Below the pieces are notes generated by a model, which was given only the letters and a program-made list of their open reading frames with translations, did no database searches and was not told the DNA's origin. From NCBI GenBank assembly GCA_018970465.1, contig JAGWWI010000003.1:1-63555 (forward strand): a stretch of DNA of 63,555 nucleotides, written 5' to 3'. The stretch is from Patescibacteria group bacterium. Lineage in GTDB: Bacteria > Patescibacteriota > Minisyncoccia > Phycocordibacterales > Phycocordibacteraceae. This document shows positions 3,357 to 56,717 of this stretch, in pieces; positions within the stretch are counted from its first letter, which is position 1; each line of letters opens with the position of its first letter. The position numbers and the translations under genes are program-made.

Positions 3357-4028
3357 TTATTTGGCCCGGGGCCAGCGGGTTGCGGCCTCTGGCCAGAGCT
3401 TGGTGAGGGGGTGGGCGGCGCAGTCGTGCGGGCGTGCGGGGCACTGGTAGCGGCCGTAGAGGACGAGTCCGTTATTGACGTACTTCCAGTCTTTCTTAGG
3501 GATAAGGACTTCGAGGTCTTTTGAAATTTTTTTGAGGTCGTTCGCATCCGTGAGGTCGAAGCGCTTGGCGAAGCGCTTCACGTGCGTGTCGGTCGCGATC
3601 CCCTCCCACTGGTCGAATAGTTCGCCGAGAATCACGTGCGCCGTCTTGTAGCCTACGCCGGGGAGCGTGACGAGCTCTTTTTCTGTCTTCGGCACTTTGC
3701 CCTTGTGGTCTTTCTCGATCGCTTGCGCCGCGCCGATGATCGCCCTCGCCTTGTTGCGGAAGAACGGGATCGACGAGAGCTCTTTGGTGAGCGTCGCCGG
3801 GTTCGTATGCGCGAAGTCCTGCGGGGTCTTGTACTTCTTGAAGAGGGTCGCGGTGACCCGGTTCACCACCTTGTCGGTGCACTGCGCCGAGAGCACCACC
3901 GCCGCGACGAATTGGAACGGCGTCCGGTAGTGCAATTCGCTCGCGGGCTTCGGGTACGCCTTCTTCAAGTAGCGGACGATCTTCGCCGCGCGCGCCCGCC
4001 GCTCTGCAAGCTTCGCCGGGGTGGCCAT
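3357..4028 (-). CDS. nth: Endonuclease III family DNA glycosylase/AP lyase
   Basis: HhH-GPD fold motifs: VLSAQCTD, LPGVGYKTAHVILG, and the catalytic region ATDTHVKRF. Confidence 0.85.
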   Translation of the reverse strand: MATPAKLAERRARAAKIVRYLKKAYPKPASELHYRTPFQFVAAVVLSAQCTDKVVNRVTATLFKKYKTPQDFAHTNPATLTKELSSIPFFRNKARAIIGAAQAIEKDHKGKVPKTEKELVTLPGVGYKTAHVILGELFDQWEGIATDTHVKRFAKRFDLTDANDLKKISKDLEVLIPKKDWKYVNNGLVLYGRYQCPARPHDCAAHPLTKLWPEAATRWPRAK

Positions 4029-4516: not shown

Positions 4517-4990
4517 TTATGCGCCGAGCGCCCTGAGGTCGGCGACCACTTCGGCGGCGTGCGCCTCGGGCTTCACCTTCTCGTAGACCTTCGCGACCTT
4601 CCCTGCCGGATCGATAAGGAAGGACGCGCGCGTCGTGCCCATGTAGGTCTTGCCGTACATCTTCTTCTCGCCGAAGACGCCGTAGCGCCCCACGACCTCC
4701 TTGTGCGCATCCGCGAGGAGCGTGAACGGGAGGTTGAAGCTCGTCGCGAACTTCTTATGGCTTTCGACGCTGTCGGTCGAGACGCCGACCACCTCCGCGC
4801 CGATAGCGCCGAAATCGGCGAACTGGTCGCGGAGCCCGCACGCCTCGATCGTGCAGCCTGGGGTGTCGTCCTTGGGGTAGAAATAGAGCAGCACCCACTT
4901 CCCCGCATACTCTGCGAGGGAATGCTCGCGCCCGTCCTGATCCGGGAGCGTGAACGCGGGCGCCGCCGTACCGACCTTAGGCATCTCCAT
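4517..4990 (-). CDS. bcp: Thiol peroxidase / peroxiredoxin, Bcp type
   Basis: APAFTLPDQDG..YFYPKDDTPGCT (peroxidatic Cys motif). Start taken at MEMPKVG. TATAAT lies 7 nt upstream of that ATG. Confidence 0.9.
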   Translation of the reverse strand: MEMPKVGTAAPAFTLPDQDGREHSLAEYAGKWVLLYFYPKDDTPGCTIEACGLRDQFADFGAIGAEVVGVSTDSVESHKKFATSFNLPFTLLADAHKEVVGRYGVFGEKKMYGKTYMGTTRASFLIDPAGKVAKVYEKVKPEAHAAEVVADLRALGA

Positions 4991-5735
4991 GTGGCGGATT
5001 ATAGGCGATAAAGTCCGTTTCCGCAGCAGCAATCGTCTTCTCGAATATCTGCACGAAGAGGTTTAAATGCCGCTCTTTCGTGTACTCCCGGCGGCAAGCT
5101 TTGTAGAAACGCTCATATTTTTCTTTGCCGAATACGTCGATGAGGTAAGCACTGAACGCCCCAGCAAGACTATAGAAGTATATGGCGTACCAGTCGTCGG
5201 TTTCCAACCACGCTTCGTGCCGGAAAAATGTTTCCAACGGCGGGTAGAGCCTTTTATTGTATCCCTCCGCAACATAGATACGGTGGGGCGTTCCGTCCCA
5301 TGCACGACCGACCATGTGCTCCGCCAAGCCTTCCTGCAAGAAACCGAACGCAAGGCCCCACGGGAGCGACAGCAGGTGCGTATCCTCATGCGGACCGATC
5401 GGCTTGGTTTTATCGGTATATAACACATGGATTCTGAACTCATCGTAAATCGACTGGGCGTACCAGTCGTCGCCCATCAACTCCGTTTTAATCGCCTCGG
5501 TTGGGTAGAAAAAATATTCGATCCGCTTATTGGGAGGCGTGACTCCCAAGAAGGCGATGATTTTCATATAGCCATTCTCCTGCGTCTGCACAATGTGTCG
5601 GATGTCTTTCTCGGCCTCAGACCCCGGAAAAAAATTGAACTCGTAGTGTTCAGAGTATTCGGACACGAAGCGTGTGTCCGTTTCGAAGTTGTGCCTATAG
5701 TTCGGCAAGTGCTGGTCGTAGGCCATTGTCGCCAT
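4977..5735 (-). CDS. Putative zinc metallopeptidase (HExxH, MA-clan / Peptidase_MA_2-like)
   Basis: Internal ATG (MATMAYDQ..) of ORF 4977..6107. HEDTH (HExxH) is followed by FLQEGLAEH, resembling the gluzincin third-ligand segment. Lower G+C than the flanks. Lies directly downstream of the radical SAM gene. Confidence 0.55.
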   Translation of the reverse strand: MATMAYDQHLPNYRHNFETDTRFVSEYSEHYEFNFFPGSEAEKDIRHIVQTQENGYMKIIAFLGVTPPNKRIEYFFYPTEAIKTELMGDDWYAQSIYDEFRIHVLYTDKTKPIGPHEDTHLLSLPWGLAFGFLQEGLAEHMVGRAWDGTPHRIYVAEGYNKRLYPPLETFFRHEAWLETDDWYAIYFYSLAGAFSAYLIDVFGKEKYERFYKACRREYTKERHLNLFVQIFEKTIAAAETDFIAYNPPHGDA

Positions 5736-5750
5736 AATAGCGCACAAGAT

Positions 5751-5779
5751 GGGCCCCGCAGCGCGCTGCTGCGGGGCCC
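5751..5779 (-). promoter_or_regulatory. 12-bp perfect stem-loop between the radical SAM gene and the peptidase gene
   Basis: gggccccgcagc-gcgct-gctgcggggccc. No U-tract follows, so it may act as a processing or stability element or a weak attenuator. Confidence 0.4.
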
Positions 5780-5784
5780 ACAAA

Positions 5785-7098
5785 TCAATAGTTAAGCTTA
5801 AGCAAGCCTTCGTTGTACACTTTGATGAGAGGCTTCTGACAGAAGCGCTCCGCGCCGCCTCCAGGCCCTCCAGCGGCCACCATCGCATCGTGAATGCAGC
5901 CGCCACCGCATATGGGCAAGAAGGCGCATCGCTCTTGGATGCACTGGTCGGTGCGCCTCCACGACTCGAACCGTTCGTCCCGGAGATACTCTCCGGGAGT
6001 ATCTGCCACCGTACCGAAGTCATACTCCGCCCTCCCAGCTGTGCAAAAGCACTTTTGGAGCGCTCCGTCGGGCTGGAGGATGGCTGCGTGCTTCGCGATA
6101 GCCACACACCAAGGACCGGTCACAAACTCATCGGGAATCGCGAAGCCGTGAGCCTGCGCGACGGCCCAAATGGACACAGCCTTTTCACCGAGCGCCCGTT
6201 CCTCGTCCCAACGCAAGCGCGCGGGACGATCAAGCGTCGGAGTGATGAGGCCAAGGCTCAGATTCATCCGATCCTGGGCGCCCAAACTCGCGAGATATTC
6301 GATGAGTTCAGGGATGCGATCCGCATTTGCGTGATCAAGCGAAATGCGAATATCGACCTTCTTTATGTAATCGGTCGAGACGAGCATTTTGATCGCCGCG
6401 ATTACATTACAGAACGTCTGTCGCCCGTGTTTACCCGGGCGGCGCGCGTTGTGTATGTCTTCGGGACCATCGAGAGTGATTTGTACTCGTAGCCATTGGT
6501 GTGTCGACAGCATTTCTGCGGTCGCCTCATCCAAGAGTTCGCCGTTGCTAACGAGCTCCGTCCAGAAATCAAGGCGACGCTCGGCAGCGAGCGAATGTGC
6601 CGCCACAAGCCCTTTCTCGACAATGTCCTTCCGCAGGAGCGGTTCACCGCCGAAAAGCACGAGTCGGAACGCATCAATTTCTGGGTGTTGATCGAGGTAA
6701 TTCGAGAGCCATAGTCGAGTCGCGTCAATTACCTTGTCGGACATCCCCCGCATGCGATCTCCGCCATTCTCGAAACAGTAGCCGCAGGCAAGTTGGCACT
6801 GAATGGTCGGCAGGAAGTGGAGAATGAAGATGTGCGCCTCGTTATTGCGCCGCCCTACCAGACGTTCCCGCCACGCGGCGTACTCGTCGCGGTCGGCCGA
6901 CACAAGCAAGCCAACCTCTGGCTGCGCGAGTGATTGGATGGCGCTCGTAACTTCACCGCCAGAAAGCTGTCTTTCCAATTCGGCTTCATCTGTCACAGAC
7001 ATCCTCACCACTGCACCCGTAAGGGTGCTCTTTATCGCCACGGAATCAGCATCCACTGGAACGCGAATGTGGAAGTCGCTCCATTTGACCTTCGTCAT
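5785..7098 (-). CDS. Radical SAM / SPASM-domain peptide-modifying enzyme
   Basis: CxxxCxxC (CQLACGYC) lies about 100 aa from the N-terminus, with GGEPLL after it. C-terminal SPASM-like Cys pattern: CVAIAKHAAILQPDGALQKC (C-x13-G-x4-C) and CIQERCAFLPICGGGC. Strong SD: GAGGAGGattttgacATG. Confidence 0.9.
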   Translation of the reverse strand: MTKVKWSDFHIRVPVDADSVAIKSTLTGAVVRMSVTDEAELERQLSGGEVTSAIQSLAQPEVGLLVSADRDEYAAWRERLVGRRNNEAHIFILHFLPTIQCQLACGYCFENGGDRMRGMSDKVIDATRLWLSNYLDQHPEIDAFRLVLFGGEPLLRKDIVEKGLVAAHSLAAERRLDFWTELVSNGELLDEATAEMLSTHQWLRVQITLDGPEDIHNARRPGKHGRQTFCNVIAAIKMLVSTDYIKKVDIRISLDHANADRIPELIEYLASLGAQDRMNLSLGLITPTLDRPARLRWDEERALGEKAVSIWAVAQAHGFAIPDEFVTGPWCVAIAKHAAILQPDGALQKCFCTAGRAEYDFGTVADTPGEYLRDERFESWRRTDQCIQERCAFLPICGGGCIHDAMVAAGGPGGGAERFCQKPLIKVYNEGLLKLNY

Positions 7099-7123
7099 GT
7101 CAAAATCCTCCTCGGGGTCAGGT

Positions 7124-7149
7124 CACCCCTCGGCCAAGGCCGAGGGGTG
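7124..7149 (-). promoter_or_regulatory. Palindromic hairpin between precursor ORF and radical SAM gene (attenuator-like)
   Basis: cacccctcggcc aa ggccgaggggtg, located 10 nt after the precursor stop and 26 nt before the rSAM start. Confidence 0.45.
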
Positions 7150-7158
7150 TGTGATGGC

Positions 7159-7320
7159 CTAGTACCCGCAACCGTCCTTCCCAAGCTTTGGAATAAGTCC
7201 GAAGCGGCGATCCGGGTGACCGATCTTCACGATCTCAATCACCATTTGATCCGTGGCGCTATTTTCGCTCGGGCTTCGGACACCCGCAGGCGCTGGAGTC
7301 TCTATGTTGCTCGGTAGCAT
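7159..7320 (-). CDS. Candidate RiPP precursor peptide, 53 aa (MLPSNIETPAPAGVRSPSENSATDQMVIEIVKIGHPDRRFGLIPKLGKDGCGY)
   Basis: Hand-translated; it is below the 60-aa cutoff of the ORF track. Strong SD (GAAGGAGAAACTG-ATG). Lies immediately upstream of the rSAM/SPASM gene, co-oriented with it. Confidence 0.6.
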   Translation of the reverse strand: MLPSNIETPAPAGVRSPSENSATDQMVIEIVKIGHPDRRFGLIPKLGKDGCGY

Positions 7321-7414
7321 CAGTTTCTCCTTCAGTATGGCGGGTCGGTCACAGCGACACCCTCCGTGGCAGAGGACAACAGAAGAGCGAGAAGAATCAA
7401 CGAATCAATTTGCC

Positions 7415-8575
7415 TTACCCTAAAGGGTCCTCGTCCGGATGCGCGAAGGCGAAGCGGAAGAAGATCGCGAGCAGCGCGCCGACCGAGAAGGACACGAGGA
7501 GGAGCACGATGATGAACCCCGCGACCGGGATGAGCGCCGCCAAAGAGAGCGCGAGGGTGCCGAGGACCGCGTCGCGCCAGCGTACGCCCCGCGTCTCGGT
7601 GAGGTAGCGCGCGGCCCCGACCCCGAGCGCGACGCCCGAGTACGCGAGCCCGAGGAGGACGAGGAGCGCGTAGAGGATCGCGAGCAGGATCGCGAGCCCG
7701 AGGCCGACGCCTGTGAGCGCCAAGAGGAGCACCAAGACGGGACCCACGACGAGCGCCGCGAAGCCGAGCAGGGTCACGAGCACGACGTGCCGCGGCGTGC
7801 GGCCGTACCCCTCGCCGACGACCGCGCCCGCAAGCCGCGGGAAGAGGCCCGCGATAAGCCCCGCGAGCAGGAGCGCCGCGAGGACGCGCACGAGGAGGAA
7901 GATGCCGATCGACGCGACCGAGAGCGAGCGCGAGACGCGCGCGCCCGGGAGGTAGGAGGCGGCGGTGTAGTGGACGCCGCCCGCGACCGCGGCCGCATCG
8001 AGCCCAGCAGCGGGCAGGGGCGCTTCGTAGGTGAGCGCGCCGCGGATCGCGGTCCCCGGGAGAAGCGTGAGGCGGTCGGCCGCGACGACCTTCACGTCGC
8101 CCGCGAAGGCGCCGCCCAAAGTGACGGTATTGCCGTAGATCGTGACGGGGCCGCCCGCCCCGCCAAGCGCCGCGACGGTCACGCCGGCGATGAAGGTGCT
8201 CCCTGCAGCCGGGCGCTCAGCGTGCACCGAGAGGCCGACCGCGCCGAGGTCGCCGCCGACCGAGCGTTCGAGCGTCACATTCCCCGCGAGGAGGCGGAGA
8301 TCGCCCGAGACGGGCGCGCGCACCGAGGCCGAGCCCGCGACGACGAGGAGATCCTGCCCCGTCGGAGCGGCGACGATGACCGAGCCGCCGAGCGCGGTCA
8401 GGTCGCCCGCGGTGGGCGAGGTGACGATCACGGACGAGCCCGCGTCGTAGGCGTTCCCGGGCGACGAGCTCGCGACCACGAGCGCCTGGCCGGTGTGGAG
8501 CGCAGCAGGCGCGGCCGCGGCGAACGCCGCAGCTGGCGCAAGGAGCGCGAGGGCGAGCCAGGGGGCGTAGCGCAT
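7415..8575 (-). CDS. Membrane protein with signal peptide, beta-helix/bactofilin-like GD-repeat domain and C-terminal multi-TM region
   Basis: Internal ATG (MRYAPWLALALLAPAAAFA). Repetitive ..GDL..G.V.V.. segments, then long hydrophobic stretches. The antisense 510-aa ORF is judged a shadow. Confidence 0.55.
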   Translation of the reverse strand: MRYAPWLALALLAPAAAFAAAAPAALHTGQALVVASSSPGNAYDAGSSVIVTSPTAGDLTALGGSVIVAAPTGQDLLVVAGSASVRAPVSGDLRLLAGNVTLERSVGGDLGAVGLSVHAERPAAGSTFIAGVTVAALGGAGGPVTIYGNTVTLGGAFAGDVKVVAADRLTLLPGTAIRGALTYEAPLPAAGLDAAAVAGGVHYTAASYLPGARVSRSLSVASIGIFLLVRVLAALLLAGLIAGLFPRLAGAVVGEGYGRTPRHVVLVTLLGFAALVVGPVLVLLLALTGVGLGLAILLAILYALLVLLGLAYSGVALGVGAARYLTETRGVRWRDAVLGTLALSLAALIPVAGFIIVLLLVSFSVGALLAIFFRFAFAHPDEDPLG

Positions 8576-8599
8576 ACGCTGAAATGGTACCATAGCGCC

Positions 8600-8971
8600 A
8601 TGAAAGAACTCACCCCGGAGGAAAAGGAAGTGATCGAGAATGGCGGAACGGAGGCGCCCTTCAGGGGCGCGTACGTCGACAACCACGAACCGGGCGTCTA
8701 CCGCTGCAAGAAGTGCGGGCAGGTGCTCTTCCGCTCCGACGAGAAGTTCGACTCCGGCTCGGGGTGGCCGTCGTTCACCGACCCGGCGGTCGCGGAGCAC
8801 ATTGGCACGCGCGCCGACGATAGCCATGGCATGTCGAGAACCGAGGTCTACTGCAAGAACTGCGGCGCGCACCTCGGGCACCTCTTCGACGACGGCCCCG
8901 CCGAGAAAGGCGGCAAGCGCTACTGCATCAACTCGATCTGCCTGGATTTCGAAAAGGGTGCGTCGATGTAA
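8600..8971 (+). CDS. msrB: Peptide-methionine (R)-S-oxide reductase
   Basis: MKELTPEEKEVIENGGTEAPF..YRCKKCGQVLF..GWPSF..CKNCGAHLGHLF. This is the SelR/MsrB signature with two CxxC pairs. Confidence 0.92.
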   Translation: MKELTPEEKEVIENGGTEAPFRGAYVDNHEPGVYRCKKCGQVLFRSDEKFDSGSGWPSFTDPAVAEHIGTRADDSHGMSRTEVYCKNCGAHLGHLFDDGPAEKGGKRYCINSICLDFEKGASM

Positions 8972-9003
8972 CCAGCCCATCTGCGCCTCATGTTTACTCG
9001 AGT

Positions 9004-9819
9004 ATGAAAACCATCGCGATCGTGGGGCACGGCTACGTCGGCCGCGCGATGGAGGCGTTCTTCAAAGAGAAGTTCTCCATCGTCCTCTACGATCCGCCCC
9101 AAGGATTCGCTGACCAGCAGGCCGTGAACGCCGCCGACCTGGCGGTCGTATGCGTCCCGACCGTCATGGGCGCGGACGGCGCAGCTGATCTCTCCGCCAT
9201 CGAGGAGACCTTCGCGTGGCTTACGACGCCGCTCGTAATCATCAAGTCGACCGTGCCGCCCGGCACCTCGGCTGCGCTCGCGAAGAAATACGGGCTCGAG
9301 GATCGCCTCGCCTTCTCGCCCGAATTCATCGGCGAGGGCGGCTACCCTGTACCCTTCTGGGAGGGCGTGCCGCACCCCACCGACATGACCTACCACCGCG
9401 CGTTCATCTTCGGCGGGGCGCGGGCGGCGCTCGAGCGGATCCTCCCCTTCTTCACCACCGTGCGCGGGCCCTTCGCCGAATACCGCATGACCGATACCAC
9501 CACGGCCGAGCTCACGAAGTATATGGAGAACGCTTGGATCGGGACCAAGGTGACCTTCTGCAACGAGTTCTACGACATCGCGCGAGCCTATGGCGTCTCC
9601 TATGACGAGCTCCGCGAGCTCTGGCTCACCGACGGCCGCGTCGGGCGCTCCCACACGCTCGTCTATCCGGAGAAGCGCGGCTTCGGCGGCAAATGCATCC
9701 CCAAGGACACCGCCGCGCTCTACCGCGCCGCCGCGGCGCGCGGCTACGAGCCCTCACTACTGCGCGCCGTCATCGAGACGAACGCGAAGTTGCGCAACGA
9801 ACCTCCGCCGGTGAGTTAG
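9004..9819 (+). CDS. UDP-glucose/GDP-mannose dehydrogenase family protein (short form)
   Basis: Rossmann motif IAIVGHGYVG and catalytic-Cys region GFGGKCIPKD. At 271 aa, the usual C-terminal UDP-binding domain appears absent. Confidence 0.7.
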   Translation: MKTIAIVGHGYVGRAMEAFFKEKFSIVLYDPPQGFADQQAVNAADLAVVCVPTVMGADGAADLSAIEETFAWLTTPLVIIKSTVPPGTSAALAKKYGLEDRLAFSPEFIGEGGYPVPFWEGVPHPTDMTYHRAFIFGGARAALERILPFFTTVRGPFAEYRMTDTTTAELTKYMENAWIGTKVTFCNEFYDIARAYGVSYDELRELWLTDGRVGRSHTLVYPEKRGFGGKCIPKDTAALYRAAAARGYEPSLLRAVIETNAKLRNEPPPVS

Positions 9820-23510: not shown

Positions 23511-23912
23511 CTAAGAGGCCGGCATTGAAGAAATTCCTGCAGTAGGCCGCCGCGGGAAGAGTGTTGGCCATATGGCAACCTCGGCTGAGGGCACGAGACC
23601 ATAGGCGTTTGACACCTCCATGCCGCGCTTGAACAGGAGGATGGGGGCGAAGACGATATTCACAAACGGGATGATCATGAGCAGTGCCCACCACCCACTC
23701 CACCCAAGGTCGTGACAGCGCCGAACAACGAGCGACAAGCCAAGGAAACCGGACACGATGAAAACGATCAGGAACCCGATAATTCCCGTAGCCCAGCCGA
23801 CGGCGAGTGAAAGAGCGGTCGTGCACAGCCAAGCGGCAATACCCGTAAGGACCGAGCTGACGAAGTAGTTGAGGCGAGCGATGCGGCCCATGAAGAAAGG
23901 TTTGGAGTTCAT
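23511..23912 (-). CDS. DUF805-family inner membrane protein
   Basis: ..RRCHDLGWSGWWALL.. signature flanked by TM helices. Confidence 0.75.
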   Translation of the reverse strand: MNSKPFFMGRIARLNYFVSSVLTGIAAWLCTTALSLAVGWATGIIGFLIVFIVSGFLGLSLVVRRCHDLGWSGWWALLMIIPFVNIVFAPILLFKRGMEVSNAYGLVPSAEVAIWPTLFPRRPTAGISSMPAS

Positions 23913-24115
23913 GTCGATACCCTACTACGGCCGCATTACCAATTCATCGCCCCGGCTGTGTACATGGCAAAATCCAGTTCATTCGGGTAGGCGGGGCGCT
24001 TCATCGGATCGTTACTCGTAGTGTAGCTCTCGACAGTACCGTAATCGAGAACCATGTAATCGGTGCCGTTCGAGTTGTAGAGTATGCAGTTTGCGGCGTT
24101 CCCCACGCAAACCCC

Positions 24116-25144
24116 TCAATCCGAACACCACTGATTAGCTTTTAATACTCCCGTTAGCTTAGCACCGCCGCGCTTCGCGGCCTTTTTCATCTCTCGCTCC
24201 CATGCTTCCTGCGGTGTATCAAAGCCGAGGCATCTCATCGGCAAGAAGCGGAGCTTGGTTTGGATCTCTTCAATTAACGAGGGCGGCACGGTCGAGAGGT
24301 TCGTACGTTTTGGTATGCGTTCTCGTATGCGGCCATTGCGGTTCTCGACCGTGCCTTTCTCGCTTGAGGCATAAGGATGGCAGAAGAAGACATCAGCGCC
24401 AATGAGGCGCGAGAGCTCTTGGTGCTTCCTGAACGAGACGTCGTTATCGAGCGTGAGGCTCCGAATAGGCACGCCCCTCAACAGACGGGCAATGAGCCGG
24501 TTCACGTCCTCGGTCTTGCGGCTCTCAACGTACGCCAGGAAGGGATAACGCGTCTTGCGCTCGATGAGGACCAGCAGGGAGCCGCGGCCATCCTTCCCAC
24601 TCTCGATGAAGTCTGCCTCGAAGTGACCGAACTGCCTGCGTTTCTGTACGTTCTCCGGCCGTTCCTCGATAGAGCGCCGGCCATCCATGACAGCCTGACG
24701 TCCCCGTTTGGGCCCGCTCTTCTTGTGTACCCGTCTGTGGTGCAGATGCTTCTCGAGTTGTCGGCCGTATACCGAGTACACATACTTGTACACGGCCTTC
24801 GCGGAGACCCGAGAGACCTTAATGCGCCGCTTCCGGCTCCTCCCGGCAATCATCTGGGGGGACCAGTCTTCCCGGAGCCTGTCTTCAACAAACGCGCGCA
24901 GTTGGTCGTCCAGTACGACTTTCAGACACTGGACCTTCGAATACTTCCTGCGCACATATGCCTTGTGCCCTGCCTTGCGGGCGTCATAGACACCCCGTAC
25001 GGCTCCCCGTCGCAACTCGTCCGAGACTGTCGAGACACTCCGTCCTAACCGCTCCGCTATCTTCCGCAAGCTCAAGCCTGACGCTTTTAGCCGCTCGATT
25101 CTTCTCCGCTCGCTCTCCTGCAATTTCTCGTGCGCATATCCCAT
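24116..25144 (-). CDS. IS30-family DDE transposase
   Basis: N-terminal HTH (RKIAERLGRSVSTVSDELRR). DDE region: GHFEADFI .. LTLDNDVSF .. EKGTVENRNGRIR. ATG at 25144 is preferred over TTG at 25171. Confidence 0.9.
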   Translation of the reverse strand: MGYAHEKLQESERRRIERLKASGLSLRKIAERLGRSVSTVSDELRRGAVRGVYDARKAGHKAYVRRKYSKVQCLKVVLDDQLRAFVEDRLREDWSPQMIAGRSRKRRIKVSRVSAKAVYKYVYSVYGRQLEKHLHHRRVHKKSGPKRGRQAVMDGRRSIEERPENVQKRRQFGHFEADFIESGKDGRGSLLVLIERKTRYPFLAYVESRKTEDVNRLIARLLRGVPIRSLTLDNDVSFRKHQELSRLIGADVFFCHPYASSEKGTVENRNGRIRERIPKRTNLSTVPPSLIEEIQTKLRFLPMRCLGFDTPQEAWEREMKKAAKRGGAKLTGVLKANQWCSD

Positions 25145-25168
25145 ACCGCAAGTATGGGTGTTCGGATT
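24118..25168 (-). mobile_element. IS30-family insertion sequence (minimal extent defined by 12-bp inverted repeats)
   Basis: aatccgaacacc (24118..24129) is the reverse complement of ggtgttcggatt (25157..25168). The repeats bracket the transposase gene. The true ends may lie slightly further out. Confidence 0.6.
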
Positions 25169-25377
25169 CAAAGGTTAATTCGCAGGTCATCGGCAGGACG
25201 CAGTCCATCGTGGGGCGCGCGACCTTCCAGTTCTGCGTGCGAACGGGCGCCTGGCTCGCGCTTGGCGCCTCGGTCGCGCAGGTCATCGCTCCGCACATAC
25301 CGGCTGAAACCGCGCGGGTGACTGGCACGGCGGCGCCGTCGATCGCGCTCGCTGCACTCTTCTTCATTGCGAGCCAG

Positions 25378-25749
25378 ATGGTAAGTACGGCGTATACGCA
25401 GCTCTCTAATGTGCTTGTCGTCATGCGCTTCAACAAGAAGTCGAACGCGGCCTGGCGGGCGTTCATGGATGCGCGCCGGGGGGCATACGACCAGCACCTG
25501 TTCGACCTCTGTGAGCTGTGGAAGGCGTATACCGGAAAGGAATACAAGATCCTGTCTTCCATGAGCGTCGTGTTCGCGAGCGACCAGGCGCTGTTCTCTC
25601 GGTACCTTATGGAGCACGCTGCCGCGTCCGAGGGCCAATTCGGCCTTCTCAAAAACGGCGTGGTGAAATTCAAGAACAGCACGGCGGATATATTCCGCCG
25701 CATGCTGAAGCGCAAGAAGGAGGCCGTTATCGCCACCACCATATCGTGA
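25378..25749 (+). CDS. Hypothetical protein next to the IS (start uncertain, possibly 5'-truncated)
   Basis: The coding-like frame runs from the IS edge. The first ATG is at 25378; a GTG alternative lies at 25318. A clean terminator follows. Confidence 0.3.
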   Translation: MVSTAYTQLSNVLVVMRFNKKSNAAWRAFMDARRGAYDQHLFDLCELWKAYTGKEYKILSSMSVVFASDQALFSRYLMEHAAASEGQFGLLKNGVVKFKNSTADIFRRMLKRKKEAVIATTIS

Positions 25750-25753
25750 ACCA

Positions 25754-25779
25754 GGGGCCGCTCGCGAGCGGCCCCTTTT
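25754..25779 (+). terminator. Intrinsic terminator
   Basis: ggggccgctcg/cgagcggcccc followed by tttt. Confidence 0.65.
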
Positions 25780-25825
25780 CGCATCCCGCTTCGCTTTCTC
25801 AGGCTGTGGTTGTATCCTTGAGCCA

Positions 25826-27082
25826 ATGCGGCAATCGAGGCTCTTCACCAAAGCGCGTAAGGAGGCGCCCGCCGACGAGGTGGCGAAGAACGCGCAGCTC
25901 CTCATCCGCGCAGGCTACGTGCACAAGGAGATGGCGGGGGTCTACGACTACCTCCCCTTGGGCCTCAAGGTCGTCGACAAGATCAAGCAGATCGTGCGCG
26001 AGGAGATGAACGCGATCGGCGGCGAGGAGCTCATCATGTCCTCTTTGCAGCGCAAGGAGCTCTGGGAGCGGACGAGCCGCTGGAGCGACGAGGTCGTCGA
26101 CGTGTGGTTCAAGTCCGAGCTCAAGGCCGGCGGGGAGGTCGGCTTCGGCTGGTCGCACGAGGAGCCGATCGGCGAGATGATGAAGAACTTCATCGCGAGC
26201 TACAAAGACCTGCCCGTCTCCGTCTACCAGTTCCAGACCAAGCTTCGCAATGAGCTGCGCGCCAAGTCCGGCATCATGCGCGGGCGCGAGTTCGTGATGA
26301 AGGACATGTACTCCTTCGCGGCGGACGAGGCGTCGCACCTCGCGTATTACGAGTCGACCAAGCCGGCGTATATGAAGGTCTTCAAGCGCCTCGGCATCGG
26401 CGACGATACGTACATTACCTTCGCCGCAGGCGGCGCATTCACCAAGTTCAGCCACGAATTCCAGACCATCTGCGACGCGGGCGAGGACGTGACCTACATC
26501 GCGCGCGAGAAGGGGATTGCCATCAACGAGGAAGTCTTGAACGACGAGACGCTCGCGAACCTCGGCGTCCGGCGCGAGGAGCTCGAGCAATTCGCGACCG
26601 CGGAGGTCGGCAATATCTTCAACTTCGGCCAGCAGAAGGCCGCCGACCTCGGGCTCATGGTCAAAGACCGGGAGGGGAAGGACGCGCCGGTGTGGATGGG
26701 CTCCTACGGCATCGGCGTCACGCGCCTCGTCGGCGTCCTGGTCGAGAAGTTCGCGGACGAGAAGGGGCTCGTCTGGCCCGAAGCAGTCGCGCCCTACGCA
26801 GTCCACCTCGTCGCGCTCGGGAAGCCGGGCGACGACGTGACGAAGGCGGCCGACGCGTTCTACGAGGAGCTCGCGAAGGCGGGCGTCGAGACGCTCTACG
26901 ACGACCGGGACATGAGCGCGGGCGCGAAGTTCGCCGAGAGCGACCTCCTCGGCATGCCGCACCGCATCGTGGTGGGGAAGGAGGCGGCCGAGACGGGTCG
27001 CTTCGAGGTCGTGACACGCGCGACGGGCGCGGTCGAGAAGTTTGGGCGCGAGGAGATCATCGCGCACTTCGCGCATGCCTAG
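25826..27082 (+). CDS. proS: Prolyl-tRNA synthetase (short bacterial form without editing insertion)
   Basis: MRQSRLF..AGYV..GVYDYLPLG..; class II core motifs; C-terminal anticodon-binding domain (..VHLV..LYDDR..S.G.KF..DL.G.P). Only 418 aa. Confidence 0.92.
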   Translation: MRQSRLFTKARKEAPADEVAKNAQLLIRAGYVHKEMAGVYDYLPLGLKVVDKIKQIVREEMNAIGGEELIMSSLQRKELWERTSRWSDEVVDVWFKSELKAGGEVGFGWSHEEPIGEMMKNFIASYKDLPVSVYQFQTKLRNELRAKSGIMRGREFVMKDMYSFAADEASHLAYYESTKPAYMKVFKRLGIGDDTYITFAAGGAFTKFSHEFQTICDAGEDVTYIAREKGIAINEEVLNDETLANLGVRREELEQFATAEVGNIFNFGQQKAADLGLMVKDREGKDAPVWMGSYGIGVTRLVGVLVEKFADEKGLVWPEAVAPYAVHLVALGKPGDDVTKAADAFYEELAKAGVETLYDDRDMSAGAKFAESDLLGMPHRIVVGKEAAETGRFEVVTRATGAVEKFGREEIIAHFAHA

Positions 27083-33670: not shown

Positions 33671-35299
33671 TTACTCCGGCACGCATTCCGTCCGCTTGGC
33701 GATCGCTTCCATCCAGCCCGGGAAGGTTGCGACCCACAGCGCGAACGGCCGACTGTTCCAGTACCGCAGGGACTTCGCGACCCCGAGTTCTTTGCGCAAA
33801 GCCTGCGCCCGTAAGAGGTCGAGGCCGGCAAGCGCCTGCTTATGGAGCCCGTTTAGGAACGACCCTCGATAGACGTCGTCCACCCAACTCTTCTGCTGCT
33901 CGCGTTGCGTACGATCGGGAGCTCCAAACGCATCCTTCAGAGCCGCGTTATACGCCGTGCGCATTGCAAGGATGGGCCGCAGCAGCTCCTCGGGAACGCC
34001 GGTCGTGACTCCCGCCTCGTCAAGCGCGGGAAGTAGCGCAACCGGGTCTTTGCCGGTAAGCCGATCGGCGCGTCGCTCGGCCTGTTCGGCGTAGAACTGC
34101 CACGAATGGGCCAGATCTGCACAGGCGATGCGCTCAGTGCCGAACGTGTTCGCAAGGTAACTCGGCAGCCGGATCGTCCCCTCGACATCCGCAAGAGCGT
34201 CAAGGGCGTCGAGGTGCACGTAGTATCCGCTGTGAAGGACGGGGAATCCGGGTAGATCCCGTTCCGCGAGCGCAGCGAAGCGGCGTGCAGCAGGCAGGTA
34301 GGGAGACCCTTCGCGCACGGTTGCGGCCGCTCGCTCCTCGCGGAGTTCGAGCATGAGCATTATCGCCTTCCCGCAGATTGCCACGAGCTCGCGTTTCTTT
34401 GAGACTGCCTCGTCCGCTGCAGAAGCGAGGACTTTCTCGGGATCAGTTCCCGAAAGAGGGCCAGGCATCTGAAGCGGCATGCGATGCAGGCCGTTTTCGT
34501 CCTTCACGATCGCGTAGAACGGGAGCTCGCCCTCGTCGAGAGGCACGACGCTTTCCGTTGTTGCCGCAAGCGCCTCGTTATAGAGCGCGCAAGCGCGGCG
34601 ATAGTTGCCGACGAATGTCGCAAAGACATTCGAATACGGTTGCCCACGAGAGGTGACGGCGGCATGCGTCGAGGTGACGCCAACACGCTCGCCCCCGAAG
34701 GCAGTAAGGAGCCGCGACACGATTTCTATTCCGACATCGTGCCAGAGCTTGCCGCCGTGAGGACCGAAGTCCTCTTTCGTTGCCGCAGGATTGAAGACGA
34801 AGAGGTCTTCGAGGCTGCGTAAACGCTCATGACAACCACCCGTCTCGCGCAGTTCTCCAAGGATGCGCGCGGCGAACTGCTTGACCGCGCCCCGCATCGG
34901 CGCGGTCCGAAGACCGTGCGCGATGCGCTCGTCCTCGCCCAGGCTCACGCCGTGCCAATCGCTCATGGTGAGATCTGTAACCACACTCTCGCGCGTCGTT
35001 CCCATGAAGGCGGCAAGGCGATCGAAGCTAGTCCCCGCTTTTTCAAAGCAGACGGGCGGTATGGCGCATCGACCGAGGAAGTCCGGATGTTCGAGGCAGG
35101 CAGTCCAGCGGTTATAGTTGCCGTCTGGGCGATATGCCTCGCGCGAGAGCGCAGGCGAGCTCCCCTTACGGAGCGGATCTCGCGAGAAGTGATCGATCGT
35201 GTGCAGATTGAACGTTACCGCATGCCCATGGGCAGTGAGTGCCGCTGATGCGATCGTGCCGTCCCAGAGGGGGTTCTGTCCACCGATACCGAGTTTCAT
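33671..35299 (-). CDS. Large conserved-looking hypothetical protein (542 aa), last gene of the dipeptidase-epimerase operon
   Basis: The second ATG (MKLGIGGQ..) is preceded by AAGGAA. No domain recognised by eye. Starts 22 nt after the DapF-like stop. Confidence 0.6.
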   Translation of the reverse strand: MKLGIGGQNPLWDGTIASAALTAHGHAVTFNLHTIDHFSRDPLRKGSSPALSREAYRPDGNYNRWTACLEHPDFLGRCAIPPVCFEKAGTSFDRLAAFMGTTRESVVTDLTMSDWHGVSLGEDERIAHGLRTAPMRGAVKQFAARILGELRETGGCHERLRSLEDLFVFNPAATKEDFGPHGGKLWHDVGIEIVSRLLTAFGGERVGVTSTHAAVTSRGQPYSNVFATFVGNYRRACALYNEALAATTESVVPLDEGELPFYAIVKDENGLHRMPLQMPGPLSGTDPEKVLASAADEAVSKKRELVAICGKAIMLMLELREERAAATVREGSPYLPAARRFAALAERDLPGFPVLHSGYYVHLDALDALADVEGTIRLPSYLANTFGTERIACADLAHSWQFYAEQAERRADRLTGKDPVALLPALDEAGVTTGVPEELLRPILAMRTAYNAALKDAFGAPDRTQREQQKSWVDDVYRGSFLNGLHKQALAGLDLLRAQALRKELGVAKSLRYWNSRPFALWVATFPGWMEAIAKRTECVPE

Positions 35300-35320
35300 T
35301 CGCTGGTTTCCTTTCATCCA

Positions 35321-36040
35321 TCAACGAGTCAAAGGTTCAAGGGTGACCGGAGCCTCGAGCACGAAGCGATCCGATCGACGGGTGACGAAGAGAGTTCCTC
35401 CCTTCATTTCGACACGAACGCGCTCTGCAAGCGGCGTGGAAGCCGCCTCGAGCATTGCGAGTGCAGCACAAGCGCCTGTCCCGCACGAGCCGGTTTCGGC
35501 GTTGACTCCTCGTTCGTAGGTCCGTATGCGGACCGTAGCGGGAGAGTCGTATTCGACGACCGTGCAATTGCGTTCCGGCGCATGATGCGAGCCGATCGTG
35601 CCAGGCGGGTTACGCCAGGCGCGGTCGACACGGTAGAGCGCGTGCGGTTCTCCGCACGCAGCGTACGCCGCCGATGCTTCACGGGTTGCGGCCACGATAC
35701 GAGTTGGGCGAGGGAGTGCCGCATAAGCGCCCACTGCCGTTCTCGCTGCCGGTACGAAGCCGTGTGGTGTATCGATGAGGATTGCGCGCCCGAGTGCGGC
35801 TGCGAGCGCGAGAGAGCCATTACCGCAAAAAGCGGATTCGCTCCCGTCGCGTTCGAAGACGCGCATGCGCACGCGACTGCCACGGCTGAGGCCAACAATC
35901 AGGCTGTCGAAGGCTTTGGTACTGAAAGTGTCAAAGAACGATGTCGGAGAAGCTCTTGCCGCCTCCGCCGCGGCCCCGAGCACTACCAGGAGCCGGTTAC
36001 CGTTCACATTCGCAAGCGCTACTTCGGAGGCAAGGCACAT
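35321..36040 (-). CDS. Diaminopimelate epimerase-like (DapF/PhzF fold) protein, short form
   Basis: Two active-site-like Cys motifs: ..ESAFCGNGS.. and ..ERGVNAETGSCGTGACAA... SD GGGGAGaaaccagaaATG. 239 aa, versus about 275 aa for typical DapF. Confidence 0.7.
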   Translation of the reverse strand: MCLASEVALANVNGNRLLVVLGAAAEAARASPTSFFDTFSTKAFDSLIVGLSRGSRVRMRVFERDGSESAFCGNGSLALAAALGRAILIDTPHGFVPAARTAVGAYAALPRPTRIVAATREASAAYAACGEPHALYRVDRAWRNPPGTIGSHHAPERNCTVVEYDSPATVRIRTYERGVNAETGSCGTGACAALAMLEAASTPLAERVRVEMKGGTLFVTRRSDRFVLEAPVTLEPLTR

Positions 36041-36108
36041 TTCTGGTTTCTCCCCTTGGGCGGGCGCGTGACCTATTCGCGCGCCCGTTAGAAGGGAGAA
36101 ACATTCGG

Positions 36109-36813: not shown

Positions 36814-37064
36814 AGGATGAGAACGAAAGAGGCCCCGTTTCCGGGGCCTCTTTCGCGCAGTCGGTTGTTTTATGACGTGTGCGCAGAAAAGGCCCCTTTC
36901 TCGGTAAGGGTAAAGAAGTGGTACCAACGCATCGCTGAGCTTGCGGACAGGGCCTTCATACCTATGTGGCTTACCATACGGCAGCGTTCGCGCTCGGTCA
37001 ATAGCCGCTTTCCACAGCCGTGGAGTGTGGGGATAACCACCCATTCTTCATCCATGTGGTGGCA

Positions 37065-55688: not shown

Positions 55689-55697
55689 ACCTACTAT

Positions 55698-56648: not shown

Positions 56649-56717
56649 TGCGTAGAGAATAGCACGAGGTGCTTCATTTCTTCTTCGGTAATTGTTGCGT
56701 GGTATACTTCGCGCGTG

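What the first reader, a model, noticed from the sequence alone, without database searches (positions are those of the whole stretch)
7159..7320. Precursor C-terminus ..KLGKDGCGY resembles the mycofactocin precursor tail
As I recall it, the mycofactocin precursor MftA ends ..IDGMCGVY. The rSAM/SPASM enzyme MftC oxidatively decarboxylates the C-terminal Tyr and crosslinks it to the penultimate Val, and a peptidase then releases the modified tail. The peptide here ends ..DGCGY. It also has an acidic/hydrophobic alternating segment (DQMVIEIVKIG) upstream, loosely like the MftA leader (..LVEEVSIDG). There is no separate MftB-like chaperone and no creatininase-type MftE; instead there is an N-terminally extended rSAM and an HExxH peptidase. 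This suggests a non-orthologous, mycofactocin-like or PQQ-like small product derived from a C-terminal Gly-Tyr, possibly a redox cofactor rather than an antibiotic. No exporter or immunity gene is adjacent.
Basis: inference. Interest (0 to 1): 0.75.

Follow-up and report, generated by a model that had tools for sequence, protein, structure and literature searches.

The report
Radical-SAM modified peptide cassette of Patescibacteria
A small, unannotated gene encodes a 53-residue peptide whose last five residues (Asp-x-Cys-Gly-Tyr) are essentially invariant in about 140 relatives (one variant tail) and which always sits next to a radical-SAM enzyme and a zinc peptidase in ultra-small Patescibacteria; it is a new family of enzyme-modified peptides, and every test of kinship with mycofactocin failed.

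Summary
Window 7159-7320 (- strand) encodes a 53-aa peptide ending KLGKDGCGY. It has a good ribosome-binding site and is followed by a radical-SAM/SPASM gene (5785-7098) and an HExxH gene (4977-5735). This three-gene cassette recurs in all 23 related genomic loci, all from Patescibacteria (CPR) MAGs, and no other neighbour is conserved. All 22 loci with upstream DNA carry a precursor ending D-x-C-G-Y-stop. So do 97/97 word-index hits and 66/67 exhaustive-HMM hits.

The mycofactocin/PQQ interpretation fails every membership test:
- No precursor hits the MftA or PqqA models.
- The precursor profile scores an MftA-like sequence at 0.5 bits, no better than shuffles.
- The essential Val-Tyr is absent.
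- The rSAM scores 47 bits against MftC (cut-off 265).

The rSAM is closest to uncharacterised families annotated as maturases of Cys-rich peptides (TIGR04463, CefB, geopeptide, Clo7bot). Its closest characterised relatives are the thioether formers CteB, PapB and QhpD. The HExxH protein is a stand-alone gluzincin (HExxH-x18-E).

Best reading: a new CPR-restricted rSAM RiPP family whose chemistry centres on the C-terminal Cys-Gly-Tyr-COOH. A thioether is most likely, but this is unproven. Tyr decarboxylation is not excluded.

The parts
7159..7320 (-). Precursor peptide gene (53 aa, stop included); not called in the public record of this genome
   Evidence: Translation. Syntenic small ORFs in 22/22 loci. 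Alignments A3 and A4. No gene is called here in GCA_028866105.1.
7159..7176 (-). Invariant C-terminal core D-G-C-G-Y plus stop; presumed site of modification
   Evidence: D, C, G and Y are invariant in 22 syntenic, 97 word-index and 66/67 exhaustive-HMM homologues. Coordinates checked.
7198..7242 (-). Conserved leader segment VIEIVKIGHPDRRFG (family motif h-x-h-h-K-x-G-x4-R-F-G); presumed beta-strand recognised by the RRE
   Evidence: K32, G34 and R39 are invariant or nearly so. The role in RRE binding is an inference.
7327..7332 (-). Ribosome-binding site AAGGAG, 6 nt before the ATG
   Evidence: Sequence read.
7124..7149 (-). GC-rich hairpin CACCCCTCGGCC-TT-GGCCGAGGGGTG just after the precursor stop codon; probable attenuator or mRNA stabiliser
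   Evidence: Folding energy -26.3 kcal/mol, z = -2.9. A strong hairpin occupies the same position in all 22 loci although its sequence is not conserved.
5785..7098 (-). Radical-SAM/SPASM peptide maturase, 437 aa
   Evidence: PF04055 at 3e-12. Full-length but sub-threshold NCBIfam hits to TIGR04463, CefB, geopeptide and Clo7bot maturases. Best PDB match is CteB. More than 300 homologues, and every one that carries an organism name is from CPR.
6829..7098 (-). N-terminal domain of about 90 residues (three strands followed by helices); RRE-like leader-binding domain fused to the rSAM
   Evidence: AF2 secondary structure. The Foldseek alignment to CteB spans the full length, 451-473 columns. Pfam PqqD is not detected, so this assignment rests on structure only.
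6775..6798 (-). CxxxCxxC (CQLACGYC), ligands of the SAM-binding cluster
   Evidence: C101, C105 and C108 are invariant in A1. Translation.
5839..6108 (-). SPASM region: C331-x13-G-x4-C350-F-C352 ... C386-x4-C391-x5-C397-x3-C401 ... C420
   Evidence: Seven Cys are invariant and C352 is conserved in at least 90% of A1. The region aligns with the CteB SPASM domain. The Pfam SPASM model hits only 2/34 members weakly.
5751..5779 (-). Perfect GC hairpin between the rSAM stop and the peptidase start
   Evidence: Sequence read. Conservation was not tested.
4977..5735 (-). Stand-alone gluzincin (clan MA) zinc peptidase of about 250 aa with no signal peptide; presumed leader peptidase. Start is at 5735 or 5726.
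   Evidence: Conserved immediately after the rSAM in 23/23 loci. AF2 model pLDDT 95.5. Foldseek matches M9 collagenase, LTA4H/M1 aminopeptidases and M30 lugdulysin. 22/47 members hit PF13485.
5319..5390 (-). Zinc site HEDTH-x18-E (H113, E114, H117, E136)
   Evidence: Invariant in 47 sequences. Translation.

Best explanation
This is a three-gene RiPP cassette found here only in Patescibacteria. It consists of a precursor, an RRE-fused radical-SAM/SPASM maturase and a cytoplasmic gluzincin peptidase.

Shown:
- The cassette, its synteny and its CPR-only distribution among the homologues found.
- An invariant precursor tail D-x-C-G-Y-COOH.
- An intact CxxxCxxC motif and a seven-Cys SPASM motif.
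- An intact HExxH-x18-E zinc site.

Inferred:
- The leader strand (h-x-h-h-K-x-G...R-F-G) docks on the N-terminal RRE-like domain of the rSAM.
- The enzyme then acts on the last residues. The most likely reaction joins the single invariant Cys through a thioether to a carbon next to a carboxylate. I favour the C-alpha (or C-beta) of the C-terminal Tyr, which would close a tiny Cys-Gly-Tyr ring. The alternative acceptor is the C-beta of Asp-5.
- The gluzincin removes the leader in the cytoplasm, perhaps cutting before the conserved hydrophobic residue at -8 and/or trimming as an aminopeptidase. This would release a modified peptide of 8 residues or fewer.

It is not a mycofactocin or PQQ system. 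The product's function (signal, antibiotic or cofactor) is unknown.

Confidence by layer: about 0.85 for a genuine rSAM RiPP cassette acting on the C-terminal motif, and about 0.4 for thioether chemistry specifically. The single figure given (0.5) is for the statement as a whole.
For: - Cassette conserved in 23/23 loci with otherwise unrelated flanks.
- Tail invariant in about 185 overlapping hits from three searches, about 140 of them distinct sequences.
- The rSAM aligns full-length to families annotated as maturases of Cys-rich peptides: TIGR04463 4e-44, CefB 4e-43, geopeptide 3e-38, Clo7bot 2e-35. PapB follows at 1e-26 and QhpD at 4e-23.
- Best solved structure by sequence profile and by fold is the thioether former CteB (1.7e-21; 8e-16 over the full length).
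- Named plasmid-borne relatives are QhpD, Clo7bot, SCIFF and CcpM maturases and anSME.
- The nearest non-CPR relatives lie next to candidate short Cys-containing peptides.
- Four of the six CteB catalytic-site-proximity positions are the same or similar: F109, F149, T at position 183 in the family consensus, and T208.
- Gly-2 is invariant, and Tyr is always the last residue. Position -4, between Asp and Cys, tolerates G, S, A, T, Q and K. This fits a reaction centre at Cys-Gly-Tyr-COOH.
- PapB can join a Cys to the C-alpha of a C-terminal residue only when its carboxylate is free, and its acceptor must lie C-terminal to the Cys (PMC12373016).
- The peptidase fold and zinc site are well supported.
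Against: - No family member has been characterised, and every NCBIfam hit is far below its curated cut-off.
- Full-length similarity is a poor predictor of rSAM chemistry (PMC10288494).
- Positions 5 and 6 of the catalytic-site profile are F351 and C352, against H and Q in CteB.
- The extra Cys352 could complete auxiliary cluster I. That would remove the open coordination site that CteB uses to bind the substrate Cys.
- PapB did not accept L-residues other than Gly at the C-terminus.
- A single-Cys core is atypical for sactipeptides and ranthipeptides.
- The invariance of Asp-5 and Lys-6 is not explained by a Cys-Tyr link.
- The RRE is not detected by Pfam.
Confidence: 0.5

Rival explanations
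1. Mycofactocin-like chemistry. The rSAM oxidatively decarboxylates the C-terminal Tyr, possibly followed by attack of the nearby Cys on the resulting enamide. The peptidase then releases a small tyramine-derived molecule that acts as an intracellular redox cofactor.
For: Tyr is invariant and always the last residue, so a free alpha-carboxylate seems required. The tails look alike, DG-CG-Y here against DGMCGVY in MftA (PMC11162802). The peptidase has no signal peptide, and no exporter is conserved in the cassette.
Against: No MftA or PqqA model is hit by any of 23 precursors at E<=10. The precursor profile scores an MftA-like sequence at 0.5 bits, within the range of shuffles. No ...CGVY peptide was found among 1.84 billion representative proteins. 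The Val of the essential Val-Tyr pair is missing (PMC10288494). The rSAM scores 47 bits against MftC with a cut-off of 265, about 100 bits lower than against the Cys-rich-peptide maturase families. No MftB, MftD, MftE or MftF relative appeared in the proteins scanned in the window (the cassette neighbours and the larger ORFs, roughly half of the ~60 predicted genes), and no further conserved neighbour gene exists in the 23 loci, whose flanks were not annotated.
Confidence: 0.15
2. A PQQ-like or other carbon-carbon or carbon-oxygen cross-link on the Tyr ring. The invariant Asp-5 and Tyr-1 form a D-x3-Y pair that echoes the E-x3-Y pair of PqqA, which PqqE joins. Alternatively Lys-6 is linked to Tyr, as in the streptide or ryptide type of cross-link. 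In this reading Cys only positions the substrate on an auxiliary cluster or serves the function of the product.
For: D49 and Y53 are invariant at i, i+4 spacing and K48 is nearly invariant. Cross-linking rSAM/SPASM enzymes are among the structural neighbours (SuiB; TigE and ChlB chemistries differ). DynA, YhhB, AmcB, FxsB and GrrM appear among the weaker NCBIfam hits. That PqqE joins Glu and Tyr is from my own knowledge.
Against: PqqE scores only 45.6 bits against a cut-off of 381 and is absent from the PDB profile hits at E<=1e-3. The cyclophane and cross-link families score 50-80 bits, below the Cys-rich-peptide maturase families. This reading does not explain why Cys is invariant.
Confidence: 0.12
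3. Another rSAM reaction on the core. One option is anSME-like oxidation of the Cys to formylglycine, which might then condense with Lys-6. Others are epimerisation or C-methylation.
For: anSME is a clear sequence and structure neighbour (1.2e-13; 4.5e-13). Eight Cys in the SPASM region could fully ligate both auxiliary clusters, as in anSME.
Against: anSME scores lower than the RiPP maturase families. anSME has no RRE and acts on folded sulfatases. There is no sulfatase-like C/S-x-P-x-R motif.
Confidence: 0.08

Closest known systems
CteB/SCIFF (thermocellin) and the ranthipeptide maturases PapB and QhpD (thioether-forming rSAM/SPASM enzymes)
   Same: The architecture matches: an N-terminal leader-binding domain, a radical-SAM barrel and a full SPASM domain. 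CteB is the best solved-structure match by sequence and by fold. The precursor gene lies directly upstream, and its core contains an invariant Cys. PapB's carboxylate-directed chemistry can use a free C-terminal carboxylate (PMC12373016).
   Different: Identity is only about 15-18%. All curated family cut-offs are missed by a wide margin. The core has one Cys, not several. The core is the extreme C-terminus, with an invariant terminal Tyr. There is an extra Cys352 beside the auxiliary-cluster ligand. The partner is a gluzincin and there is no exporter. The distribution is restricted to CPR.
NCBIfam families TIGR04463 (rSAM_vs_C_rich), NF038107 CefB (Cys-every-fifth), TIGR04280 (geopeptide) and TIGR04334 (Clo7bot)
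   Same: These are the best full-length HMM matches, at 122-151 bits over residues 5-409. All are RRE-fused rSAM/SPASM maturases annotated as acting on short Cys-containing peptides. The nearest non-CPR relatives on plasmids fall in the same region of sequence space.
   Different: Scores are a quarter to a third of the curated cut-offs (400-600 bits). Their precursors are Cys-rich and unrelated to this one. To my knowledge none of these families has established chemistry.
Mycofactocin system (MftA, MftB, MftC, MftE, MftD, MftF)
   Same: A short precursor whose extreme C-terminus ends in Tyr, with Asp, Gly and Cys-Gly just before it. It is processed by an rSAM/SPASM enzyme and then a peptidase. 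No exporter is present.
   Different: There is no detectable homology between the precursors. There is no Val-Tyr. The rSAM is not an MftC (47 bits against a cut-off of 265). The RRE is fused rather than a separate MftB. The peptidase is a gluzincin, not the creatininase-fold MftE. No MftD or MftF relative turned up.
PQQ system (PqqA, PqqD, PqqE)
   Same: A short precursor carrying an acidic residue and a Tyr four positions apart, modified by an rSAM/SPASM enzyme.
   Different: PqqE scores 45.6 bits against a cut-off of 381. No PqqA hit was found. The Tyr is C-terminal here but internal in PqqA. No PqqB or PqqC is present.
M1-type gluzincin peptidases used as RiPP leader peptidases (for example the AplP type of class III lanthipeptides; from my own knowledge)
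   Same: An HExxH-x18-E zinc site, a fold match to LTA4H and the M1 aminopeptidases, and a conserved acidic motif LMGDxW about 27 residues upstream, where M1 enzymes carry GxMEN.
   Different: Only the catalytic domain is present (about 250 aa). The window protein has no Pfam hit, and only 22/47 relatives hit the generic PF13485 model. Foldseek E-values are modest (4e-5). Activity and specificity are untested.

Membership tests
Mycofactocin system | Precursor matches the MftA model and ends in ...IDGMCGVY with the essential Val-Tyr | tested here: not met
   No MftA hit for any of 23 precursors at E<=10. The tail is D-x-C-G-Y with Gly, not Val, before the Tyr. The profile scores an MftA-like sequence at 0.5 bits, the same as shuffles. 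The motif and the Val-Tyr requirement are taken from PMC11162802 and PMC10288494.
Mycofactocin system | rSAM is an MftC equivalog (TIGR03962) | tested here: not met
   47 bits, E = 2e-12, against a cut-off of 265. It ranks 22nd among the NCBIfam hits.
Mycofactocin system | Separate MftB chaperone, creatininase-type MftE peptidase, MftD oxidase and MftF glycosyltransferase in the cluster | tested here: not met
   Only the precursor, the rSAM and a gluzincin are conserved across 23 loci. Neighbours in the window are a Redoxin, CYTH, HhH-GPD, HAD and MsrB. The rest of the genome could not be examined.
PQQ system | PqqA precursor and PqqE equivalog (TIGR02109) | tested here: not met
   PqqE scores 45.6 bits against a cut-off of 381. 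No PqqA hit in Pfam or NCBIfam. PqqE is absent from the PDB profile hits at E<=1e-3.
Radical-SAM/SPASM RiPP maturase with fused RRE (CteB-like architecture) | CxxxCxxC SAM-cluster motif | tested here: met
   C101, C105 and C108 are invariant in 34 sequences. PF04055 is hit by 34/34 members.
Radical-SAM/SPASM RiPP maturase with fused RRE (CteB-like architecture) | Seven-Cys SPASM motif (C-x9-15-G-x4-C, gap, C-x2-C-x5-C-x3-C, gap, C) | tested here: met
   The pattern is C331-x13-G-x4-C350 ... C386-x4-C391-x5-C397-x3-C401 ... C420. All seven are invariant, and the CX2C element is replaced by CX4C. The region aligns to the CteB SPASM domain. The Pfam SPASM model hits only 2/34 members weakly.
Radical-SAM/SPASM RiPP maturase with fused RRE (CteB-like architecture) | N-terminal RiPP recognition element (PqqD-like winged helix) | tested here: inconclusive
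   The AF2 model shows three strands followed by helices in residues 1-86. The Foldseek alignment to CteB spans the whole length. No Pfam PqqD hit was obtained, and leader binding was not tested.
Radical-SAM/SPASM RiPP maturase with fused RRE (CteB-like architecture) | Short precursor gene directly adjacent and co-conserved | tested here: met
   Found in 22/22 loci with upstream DNA.
Sactipeptide / ranthipeptide class | Cys sulfur linked to the alpha carbon (sactipeptide) or the beta/gamma carbon (ranthipeptide) of another residue in the mature peptide | not testable with these tools
   This requires MS and NMR on the modified peptide. Only indirect support is available: an invariant Cys and the nearest relatives.
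Curated NCBIfam maturase equivalogs (TIGR04463, CefB, geopeptide, Clo7bot, PapB, SCIFF) | Score at or above the curated cut-off | tested here: not met
   Best score is 151 bits against a cut-off of 525. All others are also below threshold.
Gluzincin (clan MA) zinc metallopeptidase | HExxH plus a downstream Glu as third zinc ligand, within a thermolysin/M1-like catalytic fold | tested here: met
   H113, E114, H117 and E136 are invariant. The AF2 model has pLDDT 95.5. Foldseek matches M9, M1 and M30 peptidases at probability 1.00 and E down to 4e-5. PF13485 is hit by 22/47 members.

The most novel reading that the evidence does not exclude
The cassette makes a previously unseen kind of RiPP in which an rSAM enzyme uses the free C-terminal carboxylate of an invariant Tyr. 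The reaction would be either a natural Cys-to-C-terminal-residue thioether macrocyclisation, so far shown only as an engineered side activity of PapB, or a Tyr decarboxylation coupled to Cys addition. The product would be a tiny modified peptide of 5-8 residues. It could serve Patescibacteria as a diffusible signal (histidine-kinase genes lie beside the cassette in 6/23 loci) or as a peptide-derived cofactor.
Probability: 0.3. Interest if true: 0.8.

Novelty: new variant of a known kind. Interest (0 to 1): 0.6.

Why it matters
Patescibacteria (CPR) are ultra-small, mostly uncultured episymbionts. Surveys report them as carrying few or no biosynthetic gene clusters; one survey states that its Patescibacteria MAGs contained none (PMC11613949).

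Here is a compact three-gene peptide-modification cassette with these properties:
- It is widespread across Parcubacteria-type lineages.
- It looks horizontally mobile: it is a GC3 island and its flanks differ in every locus.
- Its precursor is missed by the gene call in the one public record checked.
- Its five-residue tail is invariant, which implies strong selection on one small product.

The cassette offers a tractable entry point, by heterologous co-expression of three genes, to a CPR-specific metabolite and possibly to new rSAM chemistry at a peptide C-terminus. It also shows that a resemblance between short motifs, such as the tail of MftA, can mislead.

Tried and rejected
- Membership in MftA or PqqA was rejected. 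The NCBIfam scan of 23 precursors at E<=10, the Pfam scan of the window peptide, a local profile-against-MftA test with 10,000 shuffles and an exhaustive profile search all failed to show it.
- The rSAM is not an MftC or PqqE orthologue.
- A sequence search of the peptidase against the PDB found nothing. Only the fold search was informative.
- I looked for additional conserved cassette genes, such as an exporter, an immunity gene or a second tailoring enzyme, by all-against-all clustering of ORFs in the 23 loci plus the window. None was found.
- I looked for a second precursor copy in the window. None was found.
- The promoter and terminator consensus scan around the cassette was uninformative.
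- Eight literature searches were run; the five aimed at a prior description of this family (CPR or Patescibacteria with rSAM, RiPP, ranthipeptide or SPASM terms; the CGY motif; C-terminal tyrosine) found none. A sixth surfaced the PapB and catalytic-site-profiling papers used above, and a seventh confirmed the MftA tail. The search on family names returned only noise.
- The supplement of PMC10288494, with catalytic-site profiles of reference enzymes, is not held. Only the CteB positions could be compared.
- A proper phylogeny against named MftC, PqqE, PapB and AlbA sequences could not be built, because reference sequences could not be fetched. HMM and PDB rankings were used instead.
- The neighbourhoods of the nearest plasmid-borne relatives (Sarcina, Bacillus, Clostridium) gave only tentative candidate precursors.
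Full report
OBSERVATION. The - strand ORF at 7159-7320 translates to MLPSNIETPAPAGVRSPSENSATDQMVIEIVKIGHPDRRFGLIPKLGKDGCGY*. AAGGAG sits 6 nt before its ATG. A perfect GC-rich hairpin (7124-7149) lies between its stop codon and the GAGGAGG-ATG of the next gene. That next gene, on the same strand, is a 437-aa radical-SAM protein (5785-7098). After a second hairpin comes a protein of about 250 aa containing HEDTH (4977-5735).

THE CASSETTE IS CONSERVED AND, IN THE DATA SEARCHED, CONFINED TO CPR. The rSAM has more than 300 homologues at E<=1e-20. Every one that carries an organism name is from Patescibacteria: Paceibacteria, Kaiserbacteria, Minisyncoccota or the Parcubacteria group. A scan of one genome per species recovered 23 loci, all from CPR MAGs. 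In all 22 loci that include upstream DNA, a small ORF directly upstream of the rSAM ends in [GSN][KLQ]D[GTQAS]CGY-stop. In all 23 loci a homologue of the HExxH protein follows the rSAM. All-against-all clustering of flanking ORFs found no other gene conserved across the loci. The unit is therefore precursor, rSAM and peptidase. In the one public record that carries this exact rSAM (GCA_028866105.1), the precursor is not called as a gene.

THE PRECURSOR FAMILY. Alignment of the 23 syntenic peptides shows G34, D49, C51, G52 and Y53 invariant. K32, R39, G47 and K48 are nearly invariant. A profile search of the 5.8-billion-protein collection gave 97 peptides of 41-106 aa, and all 97 end D-x-C-G-Y. 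An exhaustive HMMER pass over 1.84 billion representative proteins gave 67 hits. Of these, 66 end D-x-C-G-Y and one ends GKDGCCVYNR, which may be an assembly error or a true variant. Position -4 tolerates G, S, A, T, Q and K. Position -6 is K, rarely Q, L or P. Position -8 is hydrophobic (L, F, M). Gly-2 and the terminal Tyr never vary, and the Tyr is always the last residue. Upstream, a strand-like motif h-x-h-h-K-x-G-x4-R-F-G is conserved, while the N-terminal 20-35 residues are free to vary. This is the usual layout of a RiPP leader with a recognition sequence placed close to a short core.

THE ENZYME. NCBIfam gives full-length but sub-threshold matches to TIGR04463 'rSAM_vs_C_rich' (4e-44, 151 bits, cut-off 525), CefB (4e-43), the geopeptide maturase (3e-38) and the Clo7bot maturase (2e-35). 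Next come FlmE/OhkG, the nif11 maturase, PapB (1e-26) and QhpD (4e-23). MftC (2e-12, 47 bits against 265) and PqqE (5e-12, 45.6 against 381) rank 22nd and 24th.

A 34-sequence profile finds CteB as the best solved structure (1.7e-21, residues 62-405). ChlB, TigE, anSME and SkfB follow, and PqqE is not found at E<=1e-3. The AF2 model (pLDDT 90.5) matches CteB best (8e-16, 451-473 aligned columns, that is, including the N-terminal domain). TigE, anSME, ChlB, SuiB and SkfB come next.

C101, C105 and C108 (CxxxCxxC) are invariant. So are seven SPASM cysteines (C331, C350, C386, C391, C397, C401, C420). An eighth, C352, is conserved in at least 90% of sequences. Pfam sees only the radical-SAM core, so the RRE is assigned from structure alone. 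Named plasmid-borne relatives are QhpD, Clo7bot, SCIFF and CcpM maturases and anSME. The closest non-CPR relatives (Sarcina, Bacillus, Clostridium; 23-25% identity) fall in the same uncurated region of sequence space. They sit beside possible short Cys-containing peptides, for example ...KPLVLIDKCPARA and ...TMCEPNFCCSPVTNL. These candidate precursors are tentative.

THE PEPTIDASE. The HExxH protein has about 270 detectable homologues, none annotated. H113, E114, H117 and E136 (HExxH-x18-E) are invariant, as is an LMGDxW motif about 27 residues upstream. Sequence search against the PDB finds nothing. The AF2 model (pLDDT 95.5) matches the M9 collagenase peptidase domain, LTA4H and the M1 aminopeptidases, and M30 lugdulysin. 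Of 47 family members, 22 hit PF13485 Peptidase_MA_2. It is therefore a minimal gluzincin with no signal peptide, and the obvious role is leader removal in the cytoplasm. Whether it cuts before the conserved hydrophobic residue at -8 (a thermolysin-like P1' preference) or trims from the N-terminus (M1-like) is inference.

TESTING THE MYCOFACTOCIN/PQQ READING. The MftA tail IDGMCGVY is confirmed in the literature (PMC11162802). The C-terminal Val-Tyr is described as essential for the MftC reaction (PMC10288494). The results here are as follows.
(i) No precursor hits an MftA or PqqA model.
(ii) The family profile scores an MftA-like sequence at 0.5 bits. This is matched or beaten by 199 of 5000 plain shuffles and by 350 of 5000 shuffles that keep the terminal Tyr. 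The N-terminal half of that test sequence is from my memory; the tail is documented.
(iii) The exhaustive search finds no ...CGVY peptides.
(iv) Gly, not Val, precedes the Tyr, so the pyrrolidinone of mycofactocin cannot form.
(v) The rSAM is not an MftC or PqqE orthologue.
(vi) No MftB-, MftD-, MftE- or MftF-like gene is conserved nearby, and none appears among the scanned genes of the window (roughly half of the ~60 predicted genes). Those genes are ordinary CPR housekeeping genes: r-proteins, EF-Tu, class I LysRS, MreB, PBPs, MraW and DnaB.
Membership in these systems is therefore rejected. A decarboxylation of the terminal Tyr as chemistry is not excluded, because the absolute C-terminal position of the Tyr implies that its free carboxylate matters.

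MOST LIKELY MECHANISM. Two published points guide the inference. First, full-length similarity is an unreliable guide to rSAM chemistry, while residues around the active site are more informative (PMC10288494). Mapping the six CteB positions through the alignment gives F109, F149, V183 (T in the family consensus), T208, F351 and C352. The CteB residues are F, F, T, S, H and Q, so four of six are the same or similar. Second, PapB abstracts the hydrogen on the carbon next to a carboxylate. It requires the acceptor to be C-terminal to the Cys, and it can cross-link a Cys to the C-alpha of a C-terminal residue only if the carboxylate is free (PMC12373016).

In D-x-C-G-Y-COOH the only carboxylate C-terminal to the Cys is that of the Tyr. 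The invariance of Gly-2 and of the terminal position, against the tolerance at -4, fits a strained Cys-Gly-Tyr ring better than an Asp-x-Cys ring. I therefore favour a thioether from Cys-3 to the terminal Tyr, with about 0.4 confidence for thioether chemistry overall. Asp-5 C-beta is the alternative acceptor; to my knowledge there is precedent in NxxcB for an acceptor N-terminal to the Cys. Tyr decarboxylation, a PQQ-like Asp-x3-Tyr link and anSME-like Cys oxidation are the rivals. The extra Cys352 next to the auxiliary-cluster ligand, and the invariant Asp and Lys, remain unexplained.

CONTEXT. A strong hairpin follows the precursor stop codon in the window and in all 22 loci, although its sequence differs. 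This is the classic arrangement for over-expressing a precursor relative to its enzymes. The three cassette genes form a compositional island. Their GC3 is 0.63-0.66, against 0.85-0.95 for the neighbours, and their GC is 51-57% against 64.8% for the window. Flanks differ in every locus, which points to horizontal spread within CPR. The Redoxin gene that overlaps the end of the peptidase gene has host-like GC3 and is not conserved elsewhere. Histidine-kinase genes lie within 4 kb of the cassette in 6 of 23 loci, but not in the window. This is a weak hint of a signalling role.

NOVELTY. No curated NCBIfam or Pfam model covers the precursor, the rSAM at equivalog level, or the peptidase. Searches of about 8.3 million full-text papers found no description of a CPR rSAM RiPP with this motif. 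BGC surveys report few or no clusters in Patescibacteria. The general kind is well known: an RRE-fused rSAM/SPASM RiPP with a leader peptidase. This family, its single-Cys C-terminal core, its gluzincin partner and its CPR restriction appear undescribed. I file it as a new variant of a known kind.

LIMITS. No chemistry can be proven in silico. The rest of the genome was not available. Reference sequences for a formal phylogeny could not be fetched. The RRE assignment and the role of the peptidase are inferences from structure prediction and synteny.

Noticed in passing
window 4977-7340: The three cassette genes form a compositional island. Their GC3 is 0.63-0.66 against 0.85-0.95 for flanking and housekeeping genes, and their GC is 51-57% against 64.8% for the window. 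With unrelated flanks in all 23 loci, this suggests horizontal transfer among CPR lineages.
   Followed up: partly
window 7124-7149; equivalent intergenic positions in L001-L022: A strong GC-rich hairpin directly follows the precursor stop codon in every locus. The sequences are not conserved, and some are followed by a U-run. It is probably an attenuator or an mRNA stabiliser.
   Followed up: partly
L003 1112-2698; L004 ~2494-2628; L008 6562-8250; L010 6053-9226; L012 ~6134-9043; L016 ~3495-3593: Homologous histidine-kinase genes (HATPase_c, HisKA, HisKA_7TM) lie within 4 kb of the cassette in 6 of 23 loci, but not in the window. This may hint that the peptide is a signal, or it may be coincidence.
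   Followed up: partly
L026 (Sarcina sp. JB2 plasmid p5) 3814-6978: This is the nearest non-CPR relative of the rSAM (24.5% identity, E = 1e-36). It is followed by an ABC transporter and preceded by a possible very short peptide...KPLVLIDKCPARA, which also contains D-x-C. The precursor assignment is unverified.
   Followed up: partly
window 7415-8575 (- strand) and 7439-8971 (+ strand): Two long ORFs overlap on opposite strands. The public record calls a 386-aa protein on the - strand, with a signal peptide, bactofilin-like GDL repeats, a C-terminal membrane region and no Pfam hit. On the + strand it calls only a 123-aa MsrB (SelR) gene, which is the C-terminal part of the 510-aa + strand ORF.
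   Followed up: partly
window 56198-56292: ARAGORN calls a 95-nt 'tRNA' with a four-base anticodon inside the 1090-aa S41-peptidase/PDZ ORF (54711-57983). Rfam does not confirm it, so it is probably a false positive.
   Followed up: no
window 23511-25826, 33671-37044, 42200-43063, 51445-52086: Other ORFs have lower GC3 (0.63-0.73) than the host norm. They include an HTH_38 protein that may be transposase-like, a 548-aa protein without a Pfam hit and an M15 D-Ala-D-Ala dipeptidase. These may be further acquired islands.
   Followed up: no
P0358 (database peptide, not in the window): This is the single family member with a different tail...FGKDGCCVYNR instead of ...GKDGCGY. It may be a frameshift or assembly error, or a genuine variant with Cys-Val-Tyr.
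   Followed up: no
window 4517-5032 and 44995-46746: A Redoxin/AhpC-TSA gene overlaps the 3' end of the peptidase gene on the same strand. Its GC3 is host-like and it is not conserved in other loci. A second, larger AhpC/Thioredoxin_10 fusion lies 40 kb away.
   Followed up: no
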